NCBI RefSeq assembly: GCF_000018465.1
Contig: NC_010085.1
Location: 510,001 to 542,000 of the forward strand
DNA length: 32,000 nucleotides
Source of the DNA: Nitrosopumilus maritimus SCM1
Lineage (GTDB): Archaea > Thermoproteota > Nitrososphaeria > Nitrososphaerales > Nitrosopumilaceae
Reading direction: 5' to 3'
In this document: piece after piece, positions 6,887-29,183 of the stretch
How positions within the stretch are numbered: position 1 is the first letter of the stretch
How the letters are laid out: each line of letters begins with the position of its first letter
Notes under the pieces: generated by a model
Database searches by the model: none
The model's input: only the letters and a program-made list of their open reading frames with translations
Told to the model about the DNA's origin: nothing
Program-made: the position numbers and the translations under genes

Positions 6887-8137
6887 TTACTCTGGCTTTT
6901 GTTCTATGCTTTGTTCTGGTTCACCACTTCCACTTCTTTGCTCTTTTCTGTATTCCATCTTTAACCAAATTGGTGTAATTATTGTAGTGACTGCAACCAT
7001 GATTACAATTGTAGAGTATACTTCTGATGTTAATACTCCTGCAGTAACTCCTACTCCTGCAACAATTAATCCTACTTCTCCTCTTGAAATCATTCCAATA
7101 CCCACTCTCATTCCCTGAGCTTTGTTTTTCAAGAAGAACATTGCTGGCAATCCACAACCTAACAACTTTGTAACAATTGCAACTGCAATGATTACTCCAC
7201 TGATCATCAAAATATTCAAATCAACTGCCCGTAGGTCTACCTGCGCTCCAATAATTGCAAAGAATAACGGTGCAAAAATCAATCCAATCTTTCCGATATA
7301 ATTCTCAACCTTTTCAAACACTTTGGTAGTCGACAATGCCATTCCTACTGCAAACGCACCAACAATCGGTGACAATCCAATTGAGCCTGCAAGCGCTGCA
7401 GCACCAAAGAACGACGCTGTGGCTATTCCTTCAACACTACCCTTTGCCTTCCATAAACGTGGAGTGATGACTTTGGGAATTACTATTACTGCTACAATTA
7501 ACATAATTGCAAAGAATCCTAGTACTTGCAAAATTGTTATCATCACATCTGTGATTACTATGCTTTCAATTCCTGCATCTGAACCTGTTATTGAAATTAC
7601 AACTGACAAAACTGCAATCGCTAATATGTCATCAACTACTGCAGCACCAATAATCAATCTAGCTTCAGGTGCCTTTAGCTTACCAAATTCACTAAGTACT
7701 TGAATCGAAATTGCAATACTGGTAGCTGTGAGCGCTGTTGCAATTAACATCGATTCTAACGCTTCGAATCCAAAAAATCCAAAAATTAGAAAACCTGCAA
7801 AGAACGGGACTACCACCCCTAATGTCCCAACGGTAAACGACGCCTTTCCACCTTTCAGGAATTCTTTTGGTGTCATTTCTAATCCTGCCATAAACAAAAT
7901 TACAATTGCGCCCATTTCTCCTAGAATTTTTATCTCATCATTGATGTGCAACAACTGTTTTCCATCTATGATGAAAAACTGACCTAACGCAAATGGTCCA
8001 ACAATCATTCCTGCTAATAATTCGCCTAATACAATTGGAAGCTTTAATCTCAAGAAAAGCTCTGCCATTAATTTAGCTGCAAAAAGGAGTATGCCAATCC
8101 CGATAATTGTTTCAATGAAATGTGCATCTGCAGCCAT
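6887..8137 (-). CDS. monovalent cation:proton antiporter (CPA2 / Na+/H+ exchanger family)
   Basis: 416 aa with about 12 TM segments. The N-terminal 'LLFAAKLMAELFLRLKLPIVLGELLAGMIVGP' is typical of Kef/NapA-type exchangers. Confidence 0.88.
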   Translation of the reverse strand: MAADAHFIETIIGIGILLFAAKLMAELFLRLKLPIVLGELLAGMIVGPFALGQFFIIDGKQLLHINDEIKILGEMGAIVILFMAGLEMTPKEFLKGGKASFTVGTLGVVVPFFAGFLIFGFFGFEALESMLIATALTATSIAISIQVLSEFGKLKAPEARLIIGAAVVDDILAIAVLSVVISITGSDAGIESIVITDVMITILQVLGFFAIMLIVAVIVIPKVITPRLWKAKGSVEGIATASFFGAAALAGSIGLSPIVGAFAVGMALSTTKVFEKVENYIGKIGLIFAPLFFAIIGAQVDLRAVDLNILMISGVIIAVAIVTKLLGCGLPAMFFLKNKAQGMRVGIGMISRGEVGLIVAGVGVTAGVLTSEVYSTIVIMVAVTTIITPIWLKMEYRKEQRSGSGEPEQSIEQKPE

Positions 8138-12089: not shown

Positions 12090-12437
12090 TTAGTTGTTCT
12101 TTTGCATAAAGAGACTCAGCATTGTATGGCCCTTGTCTGTAATTGTATAGATCATATTTGATCCAACTGCTTCTTTTTTGACAAAGTTGTAATCAACACA
12201 TAGGTGAAGATAGTTCAGAAATGACTTTTTCATTCTGATCTTTGATTTTGAATACAATTCTGAGAATGTCATTGGATTTCCTCTTAATTGATACAGTAAT
12301 TTCAGTAATGACAATGTACTGTAATCTCTAGTTCTTGCTTTTACTGCTCCTAGAATTTCTTCATCTCTTTTGATTATGAAATCTTCGAATTGCTCTGCCA
12401 CTTCTAGTGGTACGTATGTTAGTCTTGCTCGCATCAT
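12090..12437 (-). CDS. putative winged-helix DNA-binding regulator
   Basis: 115 aa. 'LSLLKLLYQLRGNPMTFSELYSKSKIRMKKSFLNYLHLCVDYNFVKKE...YTITDKG' has wHTH-like helix-turn-helix-wing spacing. It is divergent from the PII-like gene. Confidence 0.5.
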   Translation of the reverse strand: MMRARLTYVPLEVAEQFEDFIIKRDEEILGAVKARTRDYSTLSLLKLLYQLRGNPMTFSELYSKSKIRMKKSFLNYLHLCVDYNFVKKEAVGSNMIYTITDKGHTMLSLFMQKNN

Positions 12438-12624: not shown

Positions 12625-13080
12625 ATGAAAAAAATTGAGGCTGTCATTAGGAGAAAAAATTTTCCGACGATTAAATCTCATTTACATATTATTGGTAGTT
12701 ACATTATAGATAAACGAAATTTAGAAGACAGTAACATCTATGATGAATCAAAAGGTTCACGTGTAGGTTCTACTGGTCTCAAATCAATTCCTTTAGCAAA
12801 AATCGAAATGGTGGTACCTGACAAAGATGCACGAAAAGTTGTTGAAATGATTTCTACAAACTCTGGGTTATCTGCAACCCATGGTGGCAAGATCTTTGTA
12901 TCTGAAATGGAAGAAGTCGTTGACATGGAAACAAATGATGCTACACAAGATCTTGAACTTATCCTAGACGAAAAACCCTCTTCAGTACAATTACCAAAAC
13001 GTAGTAGACTTGTTCCATTACAAAAATTCACTTTGCATAAACTACAAGTAATCTATGAGGAGAACAAAGAAACTCTTTGA
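12625..13080 (+). CDS. divergent PII-like (GlnB/GlnK fold) protein with C-terminal extension; reading frame continues past an in-frame TGA to 13206
   Basis: 'MKKIEAVIR...', 'AKIEMVVPDKDARKVVEMI' and 'GGKIFVSEMEEVVDMET' align by eye to GlnB beta1, beta3-alpha2 and the B-loop/beta4. The T-loop region is not canonical. The tail 'RLVPLQKFTLHKLQVIYEENKETL*' resembles the first half of an RHH domain. Confidence 0.7.
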   Translation: MKKIEAVIRRKNFPTIKSHLHIIGSYIIDKRNLEDSNIYDESKGSRVGSTGLKSIPLAKIEMVVPDKDARKVVEMISTNSGLSATHGGKIFVSEMEEVVDMETNDATQDLELILDEKPSSVQLPKRSRLVPLQKFTLHKLQVIYEENKETL

Positions 13081-13206
13081 ACTGATTATAGAATAAAATC
13101 ATTTAGTGATTTTGTAAATCATTGTATTATGAAATACATTCCAACATTGGAAAAACAACTAAAGAATCCTACAATTGTTTACGAAAACAATTTTGGAGAT
13201 TTTTAA
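13081..13206 (+). other. in-frame stop-free extension after TGA encoding the second half of an RHH-like domain
   Basis: 41 sense codons directly in frame after TGA 13078-13080: TDYRIKSFSDFVNHCIMKYIPTLEKQLKNPTIVYENNFGDF. 'SFSDFVNHCI' resembles RHH helix 2. The only internal start (ATG 13129) falls after that helix. Confidence 0.45.
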
Positions 13207-13209
13207 TTT

Positions 13210-13308
13210 CTAGAAAATATAATCTGAAAACAACCACAATCCAACTAAAGTTAAACCTACTCCTGCCATTATCACTTTTGCAATGAAAATTTTTCTAGAA
13301 GTCTTCAT
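13210..13308 (-). CDS. micro membrane protein (32 aa)
   Basis: ATG ORF MKTSRKIFIAKVIMAGVGLTLVGLWLFSDYIF. Its ATG overlaps the stop of the upstream micro-ORF (atATGA). Confidence 0.3.
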   Translation of the reverse strand: MKTSRKIFIAKVIMAGVGLTLVGLWLFSDYIF

Positions 13309-13394
13309 ATGAAGAATAATAATATTGGTGGTATAACAATTATTCCAATGATTGCAGCAACTTTTGGATAATCCTTAGGCTTGATTGGTTGCAT
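13305..13394 (-). CDS. micro membrane protein (29 aa)
   Basis: ATG ORF MQPIKPKDYPKVAAIIGIIVIPPILLFFI. It lies 45 nt downstream of the PII gene on the same strand. Confidence 0.3.
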   Translation of the reverse strand: MQPIKPKDYPKVAAIIGIIVIPPILLFFI

Positions 13395-13439
13395 CTTTTC
13401 TCTTTTGAATAGATTGTTTTTACGAATACTCATACCAAA

Positions 13440-13772
13440 TCACATAACAGTCTCTTCGCCCTCTGTGTCAGTTGCAATATCTACTGCGCGCAAAACCTGT
13501 GAGACAAAAATCTTGCCAATTCTACCATTATCTTTGATTATCTTTACTACTTCGTCTTCTCTGGCGTCTGGAATAATAGCTGTGATGAAATATTTTTCTG
13601 TAAATTGTGGGACAAAAATTTCACTTCCTTTTGATGCGTGAATTTCTGGGGCTGGTCTCTTTCCTCTACCTCTTACTTTGGTAACTGTGAGTCCTCCTAT
13701 TCCAATCTTCTTTAATTCTTCACTTATTGCCATTACATCATTTTCGCCGAGAATAGCTTCTATTTTGAGCAT
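13440..13772 (-). CDS. PII-family nitrogen regulatory protein (GlnB/GlnK-like)
   Basis: 110 aa. 'MLKIEAIL...GGLTVTKVRGRGKRP...GKIFVSQVLRAVDIATDTEGEE' matches the PII architecture and length. It is divergent from amt. Confidence 0.8.
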   Translation of the reverse strand: MLKIEAILGENDVMAISEELKKIGIGGLTVTKVRGRGKRPAPEIHASKGSEIFVPQFTEKYFITAIIPDAREDEVVKIIKDNGRIGKIFVSQVLRAVDIATDTEGEETVM

Positions 13773-13889: not shown

Positions 13890-15197
13890 ATGGTACTTGA
13901 TTCTGGAGATACAGCGTGGATGCTTGTAGCTGGAAGTCTTGTATTGCTTATGATCCCTGCATTGGGTCTTTTTGAATCTGGTTTACTAAGAAAGAAAAAT
14001 GCAGCTTCAATTTTCATGCAAATCTTTTTCGGATTGGCACTTTTGAGTGTCATGTGGTTTGTATTTGGATTTAGTTTATCATTTAGTCCTTCAGAACATG
14101 GTTTAATCGGAGATATGGAATGGGTGTTCCTCAAAGGTGTACCTTCTGATGATTCATTACCATTTGCTCCAACTATTCCTGGTGTACTATTTGTAAAATT
14201 CCAATTGATGTTTGCATGTATTACGCCATTACTCCTTACAGGAACAATTGCTGAAAGAATGAAATTTAGTTCCTTTATTGTTTTCATATCTGCATGGTCT
14301 ATGTTGATCTACTATCCTCTTGTACACTGGGTATGGGGTGGCGGTTGGTTAGCCCAATTAGGTGTTGTAGACTTTGCTGGTGGTATTGTAATTCACACTA
14401 GTGTTGGTATGGCAGCTCTAGCTGCTGCAATAGTATTAGGAAAGAGACGAAATTACGGTCCTGCTATTATGATTCCTCACAGTATCCCACTCGCGGTTCT
14501 TGGTTCATCTTTGCTATGGCTTGGATGGTTCGGATTTAACGCAGGTAGTGCTCTTGCAGCATCTGGTGGTGTTGCAGGTAATACTGTAATTGTAACTCAC
14601 ATGGCTTCTTCAGTTTCAGCTTTGATTTGGGCTGGACTTTCATGGGTAAGAACAGGAAAACCATCTGTTGTTGCTACCATTAATGGTGCAATCGCAGGTC
14701 TTGCTGGAATTACTCCTGCATCAGGATTTGTCAGTGCTGAACACGCATTTGTAATTGGAATTGCTATCGGTGTAATCTCTTACTCTGGTGTAGTGTTATT
14801 CAAAGAGAAATTACACATAGATGATGCACTTGATGTTAGCTCAGTCCACGGTGTTGCAGGTATTGTGGGTTCTCTTGCAATTGGTATCTTTGCAAGTACT
14901 ATGATTAACCCTGGTGGCGTTGATGGATTACTATTTGGCAATCCTGACCAACTATGGATTCAAGCAGTAGGTGTTGCAGTTGCAGCCGCAATCGGATTTG
15001 GTGGAACATGGATACTGATGCAGATAATCAAACATCTTATGGGAATTAGGGTTAGTGCGCGTGTAGAAGATGTTGGTCTTGATATAAGTGAACATGCTGA
15101 GTCGGCATACTCTGATGAAGAAGAATTCATGCTAGATATGGATACGTACACTGATTCATTACAAGAAAAAGATGAAATCTTTAGAAAGAAAAAATAG
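13890..15197 (+). CDS. amt: ammonium transporter (Amt/MEP/Rh family)
   Basis: 435 aa with about 11 TM segments. It shows 'DSGDTAWMLVAGSLVLLMIPALGLFESGL', 'VDFAGGIVIHTSVGMAAL', 'GWFGFNAGS' and 'VHGVAGIVGSL', all hallmark Amt blocks. Confidence 0.95.
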   Translation: MVLDSGDTAWMLVAGSLVLLMIPALGLFESGLLRKKNAASIFMQIFFGLALLSVMWFVFGFSLSFSPSEHGLIGDMEWVFLKGVPSDDSLPFAPTIPGVLFVKFQLMFACITPLLLTGTIAERMKFSSFIVFISAWSMLIYYPLVHWVWGGGWLAQLGVVDFAGGIVIHTSVGMAALAAAIVLGKRRNYGPAIMIPHSIPLAVLGSSLLWLGWFGFNAGSALAASGGVAGNTVIVTHMASSVSALIWAGLSWVRTGKPSVVATINGAIAGLAGITPASGFVSAEHAFVIGIAIGVISYSGVVLFKEKLHIDDALDVSSVHGVAGIVGSLAIGIFASTMINPGGVDGLLFGNPDQLWIQAVGVAVAAAIGFGGTWILMQIIKHLMGIRVSARVEDVGLDISEHAESAYSDEEEFMLDMDTYTDSLQEKDEIFRKKK

Positions 15198-15212: not shown

Positions 15213-15581
15213 TTGGGAAATAATTATGACGAACTAACACAAAAAATTCTTGCTTTAGATCCTCAAGTAAGATTTGCTGGTGTTGCAAACAATAAGGGTG
15301 AACTTGTTGCTGGAGGACAAAAAGATGATGTTGAAAAATTACTTGCTGAAGATGATGTTAAAATGTCCATTCACTATGCTTTACAAAAACGAGACTTGTA
15401 TACAAACTTGGCATATAGAATAGGAAATGAGACTTCATCAATTACAGAATATGAAAAAGTCACAATGATTACTATTCCAATAAGTTCTAGTGAATTATTC
15501 TTAGTCAGTACAGAACCCCGTGCAGATTATCTGAAAATTATTGATGCAGTTCGCTCTGAACTTGGTTTATCTGGTGATTAA
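15213..15581 (+). CDS. hypothetical protein, Roadblock/LC7-like by sequence pattern
   Basis: 122 aa, starting 15 nt after the amt stop. 'VRFAGVANNKGELVAGG' and the later 'ITMITIPISSSELFLVSTEP' resemble the Roadblock alpha-beta-beta...beta-alpha pattern. The TTG start is forced: the stop is at 15195 and the next in-frame ATG is at codon 50. Confidence 0.5.
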   Translation: MGNNYDELTQKILALDPQVRFAGVANNKGELVAGGQKDDVEKLLAEDDVKMSIHYALQKRDLYTNLAYRIGNETSSITEYEKVTMITIPISSSELFLVSTEPRADYLKIIDAVRSELGLSGD

Positions 15582-15726
15582 TTTACCTCGTCGAATCACA
15601 GTTACGATGGATGATGAACTAGTAAAGAAAATCTATATTCTCCAATCAAAAGAAATTGCAAAATTCCAAAAACACATCAGTTTCTCAAACGTTCTTAATT
15701 CACAATTAAAACGTGCACTGAAATAG
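15574..15726 (+). CDS. small ribbon-helix-helix (CopG/Arc-like) DNA-binding protein
   Basis: VINLPRRITVTMDDELVKKIYILQSKEIAKFQKHISFSNVLNSQLKRALK reads as a beta-strand (RRITVTM) plus two helices. GTG 15574 overlaps the upstream stop by 8 nt. The start is uncertain (TTG 15562 or ATG 15607 are also possible). Confidence 0.5.
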   Translation: MINLPRRITVTMDDELVKKIYILQSKEIAKFQKHISFSNVLNSQLKRALK

Positions 15727-27874: not shown

Positions 27875-29041
27875 ATGTCATCATTCTTGCTAAAGAAAAA
27901 ACGCCTAAAAACATGGGATGAAAAACTATCCAACAAATCCCAGAGGACAAAAGATGGTTATACTTTAGTTATCAAATCCTTTGAAAAATTCTGCAGCGAG
28001 TATTATGGAGGTAGAACAAAAGACGATATCTTTGATGAATTATCTGTTCTAAAAGATGCTGAAAAGACTCTTGCTACTGTAGATTTGATTCAAAATTGGA
28101 TTAATTGGCATTATTCTCATGGTGTAAAAACATCCGTTGTAAAGTTGTATCTTGCATGGCTAGGAAAATACTTTGATTATAGAGAGATTTCAATAACTCA
28201 AAAGATAAAGGATGAACTTGACTTTAAACGCGATCTAAAAGACGAACCCTTTGCACTTGAAATTCAACATATTCAGAATATTTTCAAATTTGCTAGTCCT
28301 AAAAAGATTGGATTCTATCTCGCACTAGTCTCTACTGGCGCAAGACCTGCTGAACTATTACAGGTAAAAAAGCGTGACATTATCACATCTACAAAAAGAC
28401 TCAAGGTATTGATTCAACCTGAAGGTGTAAAGACTCGACATGGACGTTCAGCATATCTTACAAAAGAAGCTGCACGATACTGTTTGATGAGATTACGTCA
28501 AATTAGTGATGATGATCTAGTCTGGGGTAAACATGAAGATTATAGCAAAACAGAAAAAGCAGAATCAAAGACATTTTCAAGATATTGTGATAATGCAGGC
28601 TATGTTGAACGATATCATTCTAATAATTATAGAAAAATCACCCTCTATTCTTTTAGGTCCTTTTTCTTTAGTGCTGCAGCAGACGTAAATCGTGAAGGAT
28701 ATGCACACAAAATGACTGGTCATGGGGGATATCTGTCTCAATATGACCGAATGTCTGATGAAAAGAAACTTGAATGGTTTTTGAAAGTAGAGCCATTTTT
28801 GACTATAGATGATGATGAAAGATTACAACTTGAAAATAAACAACTAAAGAAGGAAAATACAGAGAAAAAACAATTCGAAGAAGAAATCAAAAATTTAAAG
28901 AAAAGACAAGTAGAGCTTGAATATAATCAAAAAGAATACGAATCAATCAAACCTGATGTAGAGAAACTTGTTTTAAATTATTTTGAAGAACTTGGAGAAG
29001 ATTTTTTCAGAAAAGTATTTTCAAAAAATAGCATAAATTAA
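27875..29041 (+). CDS. tyrosine recombinase / phage-type integrase with C-terminal coiled-coil tail
   Basis: Catalytic contexts are present: 'STGARPAELL' (Arg I), 'YSFRSFF' (the H/Y-x-x-R box), 'GHGG' and 'YLSQYD' (candidate Tyr). There is an N-terminal SAM-like domain, and the last ~70 aa are E/K-rich. Confidence 0.88.
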   Translation: MSSFLLKKKRLKTWDEKLSNKSQRTKDGYTLVIKSFEKFCSEYYGGRTKDDIFDELSVLKDAEKTLATVDLIQNWINWHYSHGVKTSVVKLYLAWLGKYFDYREISITQKIKDELDFKRDLKDEPFALEIQHIQNIFKFASPKKIGFYLALVSTGARPAELLQVKKRDIITSTKRLKVLIQPEGVKTRHGRSAYLTKEAARYCLMRLRQISDDDLVWGKHEDYSKTEKAESKTFSRYCDNAGYVERYHSNNYRKITLYSFRSFFFSAAADVNREGYAHKMTGHGGYLSQYDRMSDEKKLEWFLKVEPFLTIDDDERLQLENKQLKKENTEKKQFEEEIKNLKKRQVELEYNQKEYESIKPDVEKLVLNYFEELGEDFFRKVFSKNSIN

Positions 29042-29060
29042 TTTATAAATTATTTTTGGA

Positions 29061-29183
29061 AATTTATAACTTATTTTTATTTATAAAAAATTATGCATAA
29101 TAAGTTAAAACAGATTATATACTTGTGCACAAACATCTGTACATAAAAATTAATTTATAACTTATTTTTATTTATAAAAAATT
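29061..29183. repeat. two perfect 32-bp direct repeats (29061-29092, 29152-29183) within an array of (a)atttataa motifs
   Basis: aatttataacttatttttatttataaaaaatt was verified base-by-base at both positions, with a 91-bp period. The palindromes ttatgcataa (29091-29100), tgtgcaca (29124-29131) and tgtaca (29138-29143) lie between the copies. Confidence 0.9.

What the first reader, a model, noticed from the sequence alone, without database searches (positions are those of the whole stretch)
12625..13206. In-frame TGA splits a PII-like::RHH fusion reading frame
The 151-aa PII-like ORF ends at TGA 13078-13080, but the same frame continues for 41 more sense codons to TAA 13204-13206. Read across the stop, the sequence is RLVPLQKFTLHKLQVIYEENKETL-*-TDYRIKSFSDFVNHCIMKYIPTL. 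It has the strand/helix/loop/helix layout and spacing of the intact RHH ORF at 15574-15726 (RRITVTMDDELVKKIYILQSKEIAKFQKHISFSNVLNSQLKRAL), including the shared 'SFS-x-(V/F)-(L/V)-N' start of helix 2. The stop falls in the inter-helix loop, and the downstream half has no start codon ahead of helix 2. Possible explanations are a PII-RHH one-component regulator inactivated by a recent nonsense mutation, a sequencing error, or regulated stop-codon readthrough producing sensor-only and sensor-plus-DNA-binding isoforms.
Basis: partly seen in the sequence, partly recalled or inferred. Interest (0 to 1): 0.65.

Follow-up and report, generated by a model that had tools for sequence, protein, structure and literature searches.

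The report
Reference-only stop codon in Nmar_0586
The in-frame TGA is a single C-to-T change found only in the published Nitrosopumilus maritimus SCM1 reference sequence; every other read set of the strain and every related species encodes an intact 193-residue P-II-like protein with a conserved extra C-terminal domain, so this is a nonsense allele or error, not regulated readthrough.

Summary
A 151-codon P-II ORF ends at TGA 13078-13080, and the frame runs 41 more sense codons to TAA 13204-13206. The window is N. maritimus SCM1, genome 510001-542000; the gene is ABX12482 (probably Nmar_0586), next to a second P-II gene and Amt1. The TGA is not a conserved feature. Six of six other SCM1-like read-set assemblies have CGA (Arg), and 13078 is the only surveyed position where all of them disagree with the reference. 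All 61 GTDB species loci covering the site have a sense codon (mostly Arg or Gln). The tail is 85% identical across 52 species, more than the P-II domain. TGA ends six other genes in the window. Programmed readthrough is therefore rejected. What remains is a reference-private nonsense allele, either real in the 2007 DNA or an artefact. Two very early runs (SRR000222/3) carry a different hit 21 bp away, Ser159Pro at an invariant residue. Lineage-private, protein-changing mutations also cluster in this P-II/amt locus, which hints at laboratory selection. The 'RHH' label for the C-terminal domain is plausible in layout but failed every profile and fold test. The domain is an uncharacterised, narrowly distributed family that also occurs as 56-69-aa stand-alone proteins.

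The parts
12625..13206 (+). Full reading frame of the P-II-like / C-terminal-domain gene (ABX12482, probably Nmar_0586): 193 codons plus TAA, interrupted in this sequence by TGA at codon 152.
   Evidence: P0001 from other SCM1-like assemblies is identical apart from R152.
12625..12939 (+). P-II-like sensor domain, residues 1-105.
   Evidence: PF00543 at E 1.7e-10. PDB GlnB/GlnK chains at E 5.7e-08 to 4e-06 over residues 1-109. Mean identity across species is 79%.
12940..12993 (+). Variable acidic linker, residues 106-123.
   Evidence: Mean identity 47%, with 1 of 18 columns invariant. pLDDT is about 30.
12994..13203 (+). Conserved basic C-terminal domain, residues 124-193. It starts with the KRSRLVPLQK segment, followed by helix about 132-154, loop 155-159 and helix about 160-180. 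It is a putative RHH-like nucleic-acid-binding module.
   Evidence: Mean identity 86%, with 27 of 70 columns invariant. The AF2 domain model has pLDDT 67.8, reaching 73-85 over the helices. pI is 9.4. Only 19 cluster representatives exist among 1.84 billion proteins.
13078..13080 (+). The in-frame TGA (genome position 523078 is its T). It is CGA (Arg152) in every other SCM1-like read set.
   Evidence: The genome offset comes from matching three Table S5 mutations of PMC7490402.
13099..13101 (+). Codon 159 (TCA, Ser, invariant in 53 of 53 sequences). It is CCA (Pro) in the assemblies of the early runs SRR000222 and SRR000223.
13204..13206 (+). TAA, the native stop codon of the 193-aa protein.
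   Evidence: Orthologues end at the same place.
12090..12437 (-). Divergently transcribed 115-aa winged-helix-like protein (ABX12481; UniRef name 'ArnR1-like winged helix-turn-helix domain-containing protein').
   Evidence: Weak wHTH Pfam hits, names, and presence upstream in at least 24 species loci.
13305..13433 (-). 42-aa small ORF between the two P-II genes, annotated as a hypothetical protein in several Nitrosopumilus genomes.
13440..13772 (-). Canonical-length P-II / GlnK-like gene (ABX12483, probably Nmar_0587), convergent with the gene in question.
   Evidence: PF00543 at E 8.8e-15. Present on the minus strand in 57 of 63 species loci.
13890..15197 (+). Ammonium transporter Amt1 (ABX12484, Nmar_0588).
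   Evidence: and PMC7490402. Present in 56 of 63 species loci.

Best explanation
The gene natively encodes a 193-residue protein: an N-terminal P-II-like sensor domain, a variable linker and a conserved basic C-terminal domain of about 70 residues. In the deposited SCM1 reference sequence, one C-to-T transition turned Arg152 (CGA) into TGA, cutting the C-terminal domain between its two helices. The T is private to the reference and was never fixed in the strain. I commit to the reading that it was a real loss-of-function allele present in the culture DNA or clones sequenced around 2007. It would be one of several protein-changing variants that arose in the P-II/amt locus during laboratory cultivation at high ammonium, and the lineages that later took over carry the intact gene. 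Shown: the private status of the T, the intact conserved gene everywhere else, and the clustering of lineage-private mutations. Inferred: that the T was real rather than an artefact, that selection drove it, and that the C-terminal domain binds DNA.
For: (1) Six of six other SCM1-like read-set assemblies have C at 13078. It is the only position in up to 28 kb surveyed where all of them differ from the reference. They include lineages on both sides of the Amt1 A179V sweep. L001 and L003 carry the evolved alleles of Table S5 of PMC7490402. L002, L071 and L072 carry the ancestral allele. (2) All 61 species loci that cover the site have a sense codon: 52 by motif match (CGA 22, AGA 12, CAA 8, others 10) and 9 more by tblastn. 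(3) Nothing else differs in the gene, and the tail is 85% conserved, so the change is very recent. (4) Evidence that the allele was real rather than an error: the early runs SRR000222/3 differ from the reference at only two positions in about 17 kb, 13078 and 13099. The second is Ser159Pro at an invariant residue 21 bp away. So the DNA behind the reference and the DNA behind those runs were genuinely different populations at this very domain. (5) Five of seven lineage-private differences in the surveyed window fall in the 2.6-kb Nmar_0586-0588 cluster (P = 4e-4, or 2.6e-3 excluding 13078). All seven change the protein, against 0.03 mutations expected there per 3000 generations.
Against: No independent read set shows the T, and the 151-aa product occurs only in the reference record. 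That is exactly what a plain base-calling, finishing or cloning error would also give. Qin et al. mapped the 2011 and 2016 reads to this reference and did not list 523078 among 20 variants, which may mean they treated it as a reference error. The age and origin of SRR000222/3 are inferred from the accession numbers and marker alleles, not verified. The clustering statistic is post hoc and rests on seven differences.
Confidence: 0.5

Rival explanations
1. A pure artefact of the 2007 reference. The T would be a base-calling or finishing error, or a mutation selected during cloning in E. coli for the Sanger libraries. It never existed in the culture at appreciable frequency, and the strain has always encoded the 193-aa protein.
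For: The T is absent from six of six other read sets, including the earliest. The truncated product is known only from the reference record. The site is missing from the published mutation list although evolved-lineage assemblies have C. The practical conclusion is the same as for the best explanation: the native protein is 193 aa.
Against: In 28 kb of comparison this is the only candidate reference error. It happens to create a stop 21 bp from an independent missense change at an invariant residue in other early reads, in a locus with a significant excess of lineage-private protein-changing mutations. The reference's T at 13099 is the wild-type base, so reference and early runs really sampled different molecules.
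Confidence: 0.42
2. Programmed or regulated TGA readthrough (or recoding) yields a 151-aa sensor-only isoform and a 193-aa sensor-plus-effector isoform.
For: The frame stays open and conserved after the stop. A low level of spontaneous UGA readthrough is possible in any cell (general knowledge).
Against: No orthologue has a stop at this codon: zero of 61 species loci covering the site and zero of six other SCM1 read sets. Residue 152 varies (R, Q, H, L, K, A, M, E), so there is nothing to conserve. TGA terminates six other well-supported genes in the window at the same lengths as in related assemblies. Orthologues encode Arg, not Cys or Sec.
Confidence: 0.02
3. The TGA was fixed in the original SCM1 isolate, making a true strain-level pseudogene, and all later cultures regained the gene by back-mutation to CGA.
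For: The reference is the oldest published sequence of the strain.
Against: It needs the same T-to-C reversion in at least three separately marked lineages: early C/C, the ERR14380316 lineage with the ancestral amt allele, and the evolved Stahl lineage. It also needs reversion to exactly the synonymous codon (CGA) that is commonest in relatives.
Confidence: 0.04

Closest known systems
GlnB/GlnK P-II signal-transduction proteins (Pfam PF00543)
   Same: The N-terminal 105 residues match the P-II profile above threshold and align end to end with archaeal GlnB/GlnK structures. The gene sits beside a second P-II gene and an ammonium transporter, the classic glnK-amt neighbourhood.
   Different: It carries a linker and a conserved 70-residue C-terminal domain that canonical 112-aa P-II proteins lack. 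In the alignment to 3ncp, the 'VRIRT' segment is 'VDMET' here. From my own knowledge of P-II, that removes the two C-terminal arginines used for nucleotide binding. Ligand binding was not tested.
NikR-type one-component regulators (ribbon-helix-helix DNA-binding domain fused to a ferredoxin-like ligand-sensing domain)
   Same: If the C-terminal domain is RHH-like, the logic is the same: a small-molecule-sensing beta-alpha-beta-fold oligomerisation domain is fused directly to a minimal DNA-binding module. This is a 'works like' comparison from general knowledge.
   Different: The domain order is reversed, with the sensor N-terminal. The sensor is P-II (trimeric), not ACT-like (tetrameric). No sequence or fold match to any RHH family was obtained, so membership is not established.
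CopG / Arc / MetJ ribbon-helix-helix superfamily
   Same: The layout and size fit: a basic extended N-terminal segment, helix, short loop, and a helix beginning S-F-S-D-F. Stand-alone relatives of 56-57 aa have a Gly in the loop (G-I/V-R-S). hhalign places the domain on canonical RHH sequences in the expected register.
   Different: Helix A is about 8 residues longer. All profile matches are below threshold (best RHH_5 E 0.04, over 11 residues). The hhalign probability is at most 2%, and Foldseek found no hits.
Laboratory-evolution mutations of N. maritimus SCM1 (Qin et al. 2020, PMC7490402, Table S5)
   Same: Same strain and same locus. Their Amt1 A179V (524425), Nmar_0581 (518060) and Nmar_0583 (519513) mutations are the differences I see at window positions 14425, 8060 and 9513. 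They interpret the Amt1 change as adaptation to high ammonium.
   Different: Position 523078 (TGA/CGA), position 523099 (S159P) and the two Nmar_0587 changes of the ERR14380316 lineage are not in their list.
Split or truncated ORFs caused by errors or private alleles in first-generation reference genomes
   Same: A single-base difference private to the reference truncates an otherwise conserved gene, and the truncated product then propagates into RefSeq and UniProt (WP_012214969.1, A9A353).
   Different: Here a second, independent hit in the same small domain in other early reads makes a simple error less certain.

Membership tests
P-II (GlnB/GlnK) family, PF00543 | Profile match above the curated threshold over the whole domain | tested here: met
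   41.5 bits against a cutoff of 25, E 1.7e-10. phmmer against PDB P-II chains gives E 5.7e-08 over residues 1-109.
P-II (GlnB/GlnK) family, PF00543 | Genomic linkage to an ammonium transporter gene | tested here: met
   amt lies downstream on the plus strand in 56 of 63 species loci, with a second P-II gene between them in 57 of 63.
P-II (GlnB/GlnK) family, PF00543 | Canonical nucleotide / 2-oxoglutarate binding residues and trimer formation | tested here: inconclusive
   The 'GGKIF' B-loop and the Lys of 'AKIEMVV' are invariant. The segment aligned to 'VRIRT' of 3ncp reads 'VDMET'. Binding and oligomeric state cannot be tested here.
Ribbon-helix-helix (CopG/Arc/MetJ) superfamily | Significant match to an RHH sequence profile | tested here: not met
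   No RHH family appears for the tail, 26 fragments, 12 diverse domains or 14 stand-alone relatives, apart from RHH_5 at E 0.04-0.11 in 3 of 14, covering 11 residues. NCBIfam and PHROGs give nothing. PDB profile searches give nothing.
Ribbon-helix-helix (CopG/Arc/MetJ) superfamily | Strand-helix-helix secondary structure in about 45-50 residues | tested here: inconclusive
   The AF2 domain model has an extended N-terminal segment (pLDDT about 50), then helices at 132-154 and 160-180 with a 5-residue loop (pLDDT 73-85). In a monomer model the strand cannot pair.
Ribbon-helix-helix (CopG/Arc/MetJ) superfamily | Structural similarity to solved RHH dimers | tested here: not met
   Foldseek against the PDB gives 0 matches at E <= 10. 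Against BFVD nothing falls below E 4. The power of this test is low for a 70-residue monomer model of moderate confidence.
Ribbon-helix-helix (CopG/Arc/MetJ) superfamily | Dimerisation through an antiparallel beta-ribbon that contacts the DNA major groove | not testable with these tools
   This needs a multimer prediction or an experiment.
Programmed stop-codon readthrough / recoding site | The stop codon is conserved at the same position in orthologues | tested here: not met
   Zero of 61 species loci covering the site and zero of 6 other SCM1 read sets have a stop.
Programmed stop-codon readthrough / recoding site | Coding-type conservation downstream of the stop | tested here: met
   85% mean identity over residues 153-193. 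This is explained by the codon being a sense codon everywhere else.
Programmed stop-codon readthrough / recoding site | Evidence that TGA is decoded in this organism | tested here: not met
   TGA ends 6 other long ORFs in the window, at lengths equal to the gene calls in related assemblies.
Recent nonsense allele / reference error | A single-base difference from an otherwise identical intact gene, private to one sequence | tested here: met
   13078 T versus C is the only difference in the gene compared with L001-L004. It is private to the reference among 7 sequences.
Recent nonsense allele / reference error | Read-level support for the variant base | not testable with these tools

The most novel reading that the evidence does not exclude
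Nmar_0586 and its orthologues are a previously unrecognised one-component regulator of ammonium uptake in marine ammonia-oxidising archaea. In this reading, a P-II sensor is fused to a minimal RHH-like DNA-binding domain that also exists as a stand-alone archaeal protein family. The reference TGA, the S159P allele of the earliest reads, the two P-II (Nmar_0587) changes of another lineage and Amt1 A179V would then be parallel laboratory adaptations that rewire the same amt control circuit under millimolar ammonium.
Probability: 0.25. Interest if true: 0.65.

Novelty: new member of a known kind. Interest (0 to 1): 0.35.

Why it matters
SCM1 is the model marine ammonia oxidiser. Its reference proteome (RefSeq WP_012214969.1, UniProt A9A353) carries a truncated 151-aa form of a protein that is 193 aa in the living strain and in all relatives. 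Proteomic searches therefore miss the C-terminal peptides, and comparative studies mis-score the gene. The full-length protein has a P-II sensor plus a highly conserved, unclassified basic domain, and it sits beside a second P-II gene and Amt1. It is an obvious but unstudied candidate for how these archaea couple nitrogen status to ammonium transport. Several independent protein-changing mutations hit this small locus in different laboratory lineages. This suggests the locus is a target of adaptation to culture conditions, which matters for anyone using long-passaged SCM1 as a proxy for oceanic populations.

Tried and rejected
Readthrough or recoding was rejected: there is no conserved stop, and TGA is a normal stop here. 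Homology between the tail and the ORF at 15574-15726 was rejected at the level detectable here (BLASTP E > 100). That ORF is itself poorly conserved and disrupted in relatives.

RHH membership was tested with Pfam (single sequences, 26 fragments, diverse and stand-alone members), NCBIfam, PHROGs, three PDB profile searches, two Foldseek searches and hhalign. Nothing was significant. The full-length AF2 model was too poor to use (pLDDT 55.6).

A scan of JGI metagenome contigs for either allele found nothing. The genomic context of a stand-alone homologue (P0188) was uninformative. Literature searches for the locus tags, the run accessions and P-II fusions gave only Qin et al. 2020. The SCM1 genome paper, the 2018 stress-response proteome paper and the N. 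viennensis paper are not held, and two recent AOA papers have no held supplements. The sigma-70 promoter scan does not apply to an archaeon and was ignored.

Full report
**1. Observation**

An ATG at 12625 opens a 151-codon ORF that ends at TGA 13078-13080. The same frame then runs through 41 sense codons to TAA 13204-13206. No in-frame ATG, GTG or TTG lies between the TGA and the proposed second helix. The N-terminal part is a genuine P-II domain. It matches Pfam PF00543 at 41.5 bits against a cutoff of 25. It also aligns with archaeal GlnB/GlnK structures over residues 1-109, at E down to 5.7e-08.

**2. Source of the window**

Exact-sequence look-ups identify the neighbouring proteins as ABX12481, ABX12483 and ABX12484 of Nitrosopumilus maritimus SCM1, whose chromosome is 1,645,259 bp. 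The 151-aa product is ABX12482.1 / WP_012214969.1 / UniProt A9A353, 'P-II family nitrogen regulator'. Three laboratory-evolution mutations in Table S5 of Qin et al. 2020 (PMC7490402) fix the coordinates. They are 518060 C>A, 519513 T>C and 524425 C>T (Amt1, Nmar_0588). They coincide base for base with differences I found at window positions 8060, 9513 and 14425. The window is therefore genome 510001-542000, and the T of the TGA is genome position 523078. By accession order the gene is probably Nmar_0586. That locus tag is my inference.

**3. The stop is private to the reference**

- The read-through product has 1361 homologues. Of the best 120 listed, nearly all are 193 aa, and all 14 sequences I retrieved have Arg at position 152.
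- Four assemblies that are 99.95-99.97% identical to the window have CGA (SRR6025869, SRR6025865, ERR14380316, SRR27204715).
- Two more, from the very early runs SRR000222 and SRR000223, also have CGA.
- After fetching further contigs of these runs, 13078 is the only position, in up to 28 kb surveyed, where every read set disagrees with the reference.
- These read sets are not one lineage. L001 and L003 carry the evolved alleles of Qin et al. L002, L071 and L072 carry the ancestral Amt1 allele. So C is present on both sides of that sweep.
- The truncated 151-aa product is on record only in the reference.
- Among 63 GTDB species loci, mostly labelled Nitrosopumilus, Nitrosarchaeum or Nitrosopumilaceae, all 61 that cover the site have a sense codon. 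The 52 matched by motif are CGA 22, AGA 12, CAA 8, CGT 3, CGC 2, AGG 2, CAT 1, CTA 1 and AAA 1. The other 9, matched by tblastn, have Arg or Gln. None has TGA.
- More distant members have A, M, H, K, Q or E at this position. It is a variable, probably exposed, position at the end of the first helix.

**4. The tail is coding sequence under strong constraint**

Across 52 intact species orthologues, mean identity to the SCM1 protein differs by region.

| Region | Residues | Mean identity | Invariant columns |
|---|---|---|---|
| P-II domain | 1-105 | 79% | 36 of 105 |
| Linker | 106-123 | 47% | 1 of 18 |
| C-terminal domain | 124-193 | 86% | 27 of 70 |
| Post-stop residues | 153-193 | 85% | 16 of 41 |

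Inside SCM1 nothing else in the gene differs from the intact alleles, so the change is very recent or not real. TGA terminates six other long ORFs in the window, at the same lengths as the gene calls in related assemblies. Programmed readthrough, selenocysteine and codon reassignment are therefore rejected.

**5. Real allele or artefact?**

The tools do not give read-level data, so this cannot be settled, but there is relevant evidence.

- The assemblies of SRR000222/3 are identical to the reference over about 17 kb of the window except at 13078 and at 13099.
- At 13099 they have C, which turns the invariant Ser159 (53 of 53 sequences) into Pro.
- The reference's T at 13099 is the wild-type base. 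So the molecules behind the reference and those behind the early runs really differed within this 70-residue domain.

Three haplotypes therefore exist:

| Haplotype | Bases at 13078 / 13099 | Protein effect | Where seen |
|---|---|---|---|
| Wild type | C / T | R152, S159 | Later cultures and all other species |
| Reference | T / T | Stop at 152 | Deposited reference only |
| Early runs | C / C | R152, S159P | SRR000222, SRR000223 |

In addition, the ERR14380316 lineage carries two private missense changes in the adjacent P-II gene (T29I and E51G). The evolved Stahl-laboratory lineage carries Amt1 A179V.

Corrected for coverage, 5 of 7 lineage-private differences in the surveyed window fall in the 2.6-kb Nmar_0586-0588 cluster (P = 4e-4). 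Excluding the ascertained site gives 4 of 6 (P = 2.6e-3). All seven change the protein. The genome-wide rate of Qin et al. predicts 0.03 mutations there per 3000 generations.

This pattern favours the view that the locus was a target of selection in culture, and that the TGA was one real, unfixed loss-of-function allele (my estimate 0.5). Against this, nobody else has ever seen the T, and Qin et al. did not list 523078 although evolved-lineage assemblies have C there. That is what a reference error would look like (0.42). Both readings lead to the same practical conclusion: the native protein is 193 aa.

**6. What the protein is**

The gene sits in a conserved arrangement:

- a divergent wHTH-like gene upstream, found in at least 24 loci;
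- the P-II-like / C-terminal-domain gene itself;
- a 42-aa ORF;
- a convergent canonical-length P-II gene, in 57 of 63 loci;
- amt, in 56 of 63 loci.

The C-terminal domain is basic (pI 9.4, and its first 12 residues, PKRSRLVPLQKF, have pI 12). A domain-only AlphaFold model (pLDDT 67.8, and 73-85 over the helices) gives an extended N-terminal segment, a helix at about 132-154, a five-residue loop and a helix at about 160-180. The TGA falls at the C-terminal end of the first helix, so the truncated product would lack the second helix.

The domain is a narrow family, with 19 cluster representatives among 1.84 billion proteins. These include more divergent P-II fusions of 177-216 aa and stand-alone proteins of 56-69 aa from Thaumarchaeota and Bathyarchaeia. 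One example is MVEGWRPVVIPVEIYEKAKEYYEENKEELRLRDGIRSATAFINFCIREYLKSKGII.

Their size and their strand / helix / Gly-loop / helix layout are what one expects of a ribbon-helix-helix protein. However, no test confirmed it:

- No Pfam, NCBIfam or PHROGs RHH model is matched. The best result is RHH_5 at E 0.04 over 11 residues, in 3 of 14 stand-alone members.
- Three PDB profile searches find nothing.
- Foldseek finds nothing.

I therefore describe the domain as 'RHH-like in layout, membership unproven'. The most likely mechanism is inferred, not shown: the P-II domain senses nitrogen or energy status, and the C-terminal domain binds nucleic acid, or a partner protein, to control the neighbouring P-II/amt genes. 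A NikR-like logic with the domain order reversed is the nearest analogy.

**7. The comparison ORF**

It was not called as a gene in related assemblies. It is detectable in only about a dozen related loci and is disrupted by stops or frameshifts in four of them. It shows no pairwise similarity to the tail. An intact paralogue in L018 gives a weak RHH_1 hit (E 0.21). It may be a small, decaying RHH-type gene, but it does not support homology with the tail.

**8. Verdict**

The TGA is an ordinary, reference-private nonsense base in a conserved gene, not a regulatory device. The parts worth following up are the uncharacterised P-II plus C-terminal-domain architecture beside Amt1, and the unexpected concentration of independent laboratory-lineage mutations in this locus.

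Noticed in passing
window 13099 (genome 523099); L071 and L072: Assemblies of the very early runs SRR000222 and SRR000223 have C instead of T here, turning the invariant Ser159 of the C-terminal domain into Pro. This and 13078 are their only differences from the reference in about 17 kb.
   Followed up: partly
window 13621 and 13687 (P-II gene 13440-13772, minus strand); L002: The ERR14380316 lineage keeps the ancestral Amt1 allele but has two private missense changes in the neighbouring P-II gene, E51G and T29I. From my own knowledge of P-II, position 51 is the T-loop tip and T29 is a conserved core residue.
   Followed up: partly
window 8060, 9513, 14425 (genome 518060, 519513, 524425): [quoted passage not shown] 2020 lie within 6.4 kb of each other in this window. 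That is a striking concentration for a 1.65-Mb genome.
   Followed up: partly
window 15574-15726 (+); L018 2240-2383 (-): A small RHH-looking ORF with a GTG start overlaps the end of the DUF6659 gene. It is not called as a gene in related assemblies and is disrupted in L007, L008, L009 and L011. An intact paralogue in L018 gives only a weak RHH_1 hit (E 0.21).
   Followed up: partly
window 27875-29113: Contigs of four read sets all end at window 29090, just past an integrase-like gene (27875-29041, weak Phage_integrase hit). The ERR14380316 contig diverges at 29093-29113. This may be a repeat or the junction of an integrated element.
   Followed up: no
L059 3460-3640: In one Nitrosopumilus MAG the orthologue follows the family up to residue 155 and then continues into unrelated sequence. 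This looks like an insertion, a rearrangement or a misassembly at almost the same place as the SCM1 stop.
   Followed up: no
L044, L058, L060, L064, L067: Several MAG orthologues are split by frameshifts in the P-II part. These are probably assembly errors, but they show that broken copies of this gene are common in draft genomes.
   Followed up: no
P0167, P0168, P0170, P0188, P0190, P0192-P0201; L068-L070 3001-3174: Stand-alone proteins of 56-69 aa homologous to the C-terminal domain occur in Thaumarchaeota and Bathyarchaeia. None has a Pfam annotation. One sits near a MazE/PIN pair but has no obvious operon partner.
   Followed up: partly
window 13305-13433 (-): A 42-aa ORF lies between the two P-II genes. 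It is annotated as a hypothetical protein in several Nitrosopumilus genomes and was called in some related assemblies. Its function is unknown.
   Followed up: no
window 12922-12936 (residues 100-104): Where canonical P-II proteins have 'RIRT' (two arginines that contact the nucleotide, from my own knowledge), this protein and its orthologues have 'DMET'. Its ligand specificity may therefore differ from that of GlnB/GlnK.
   Followed up: no
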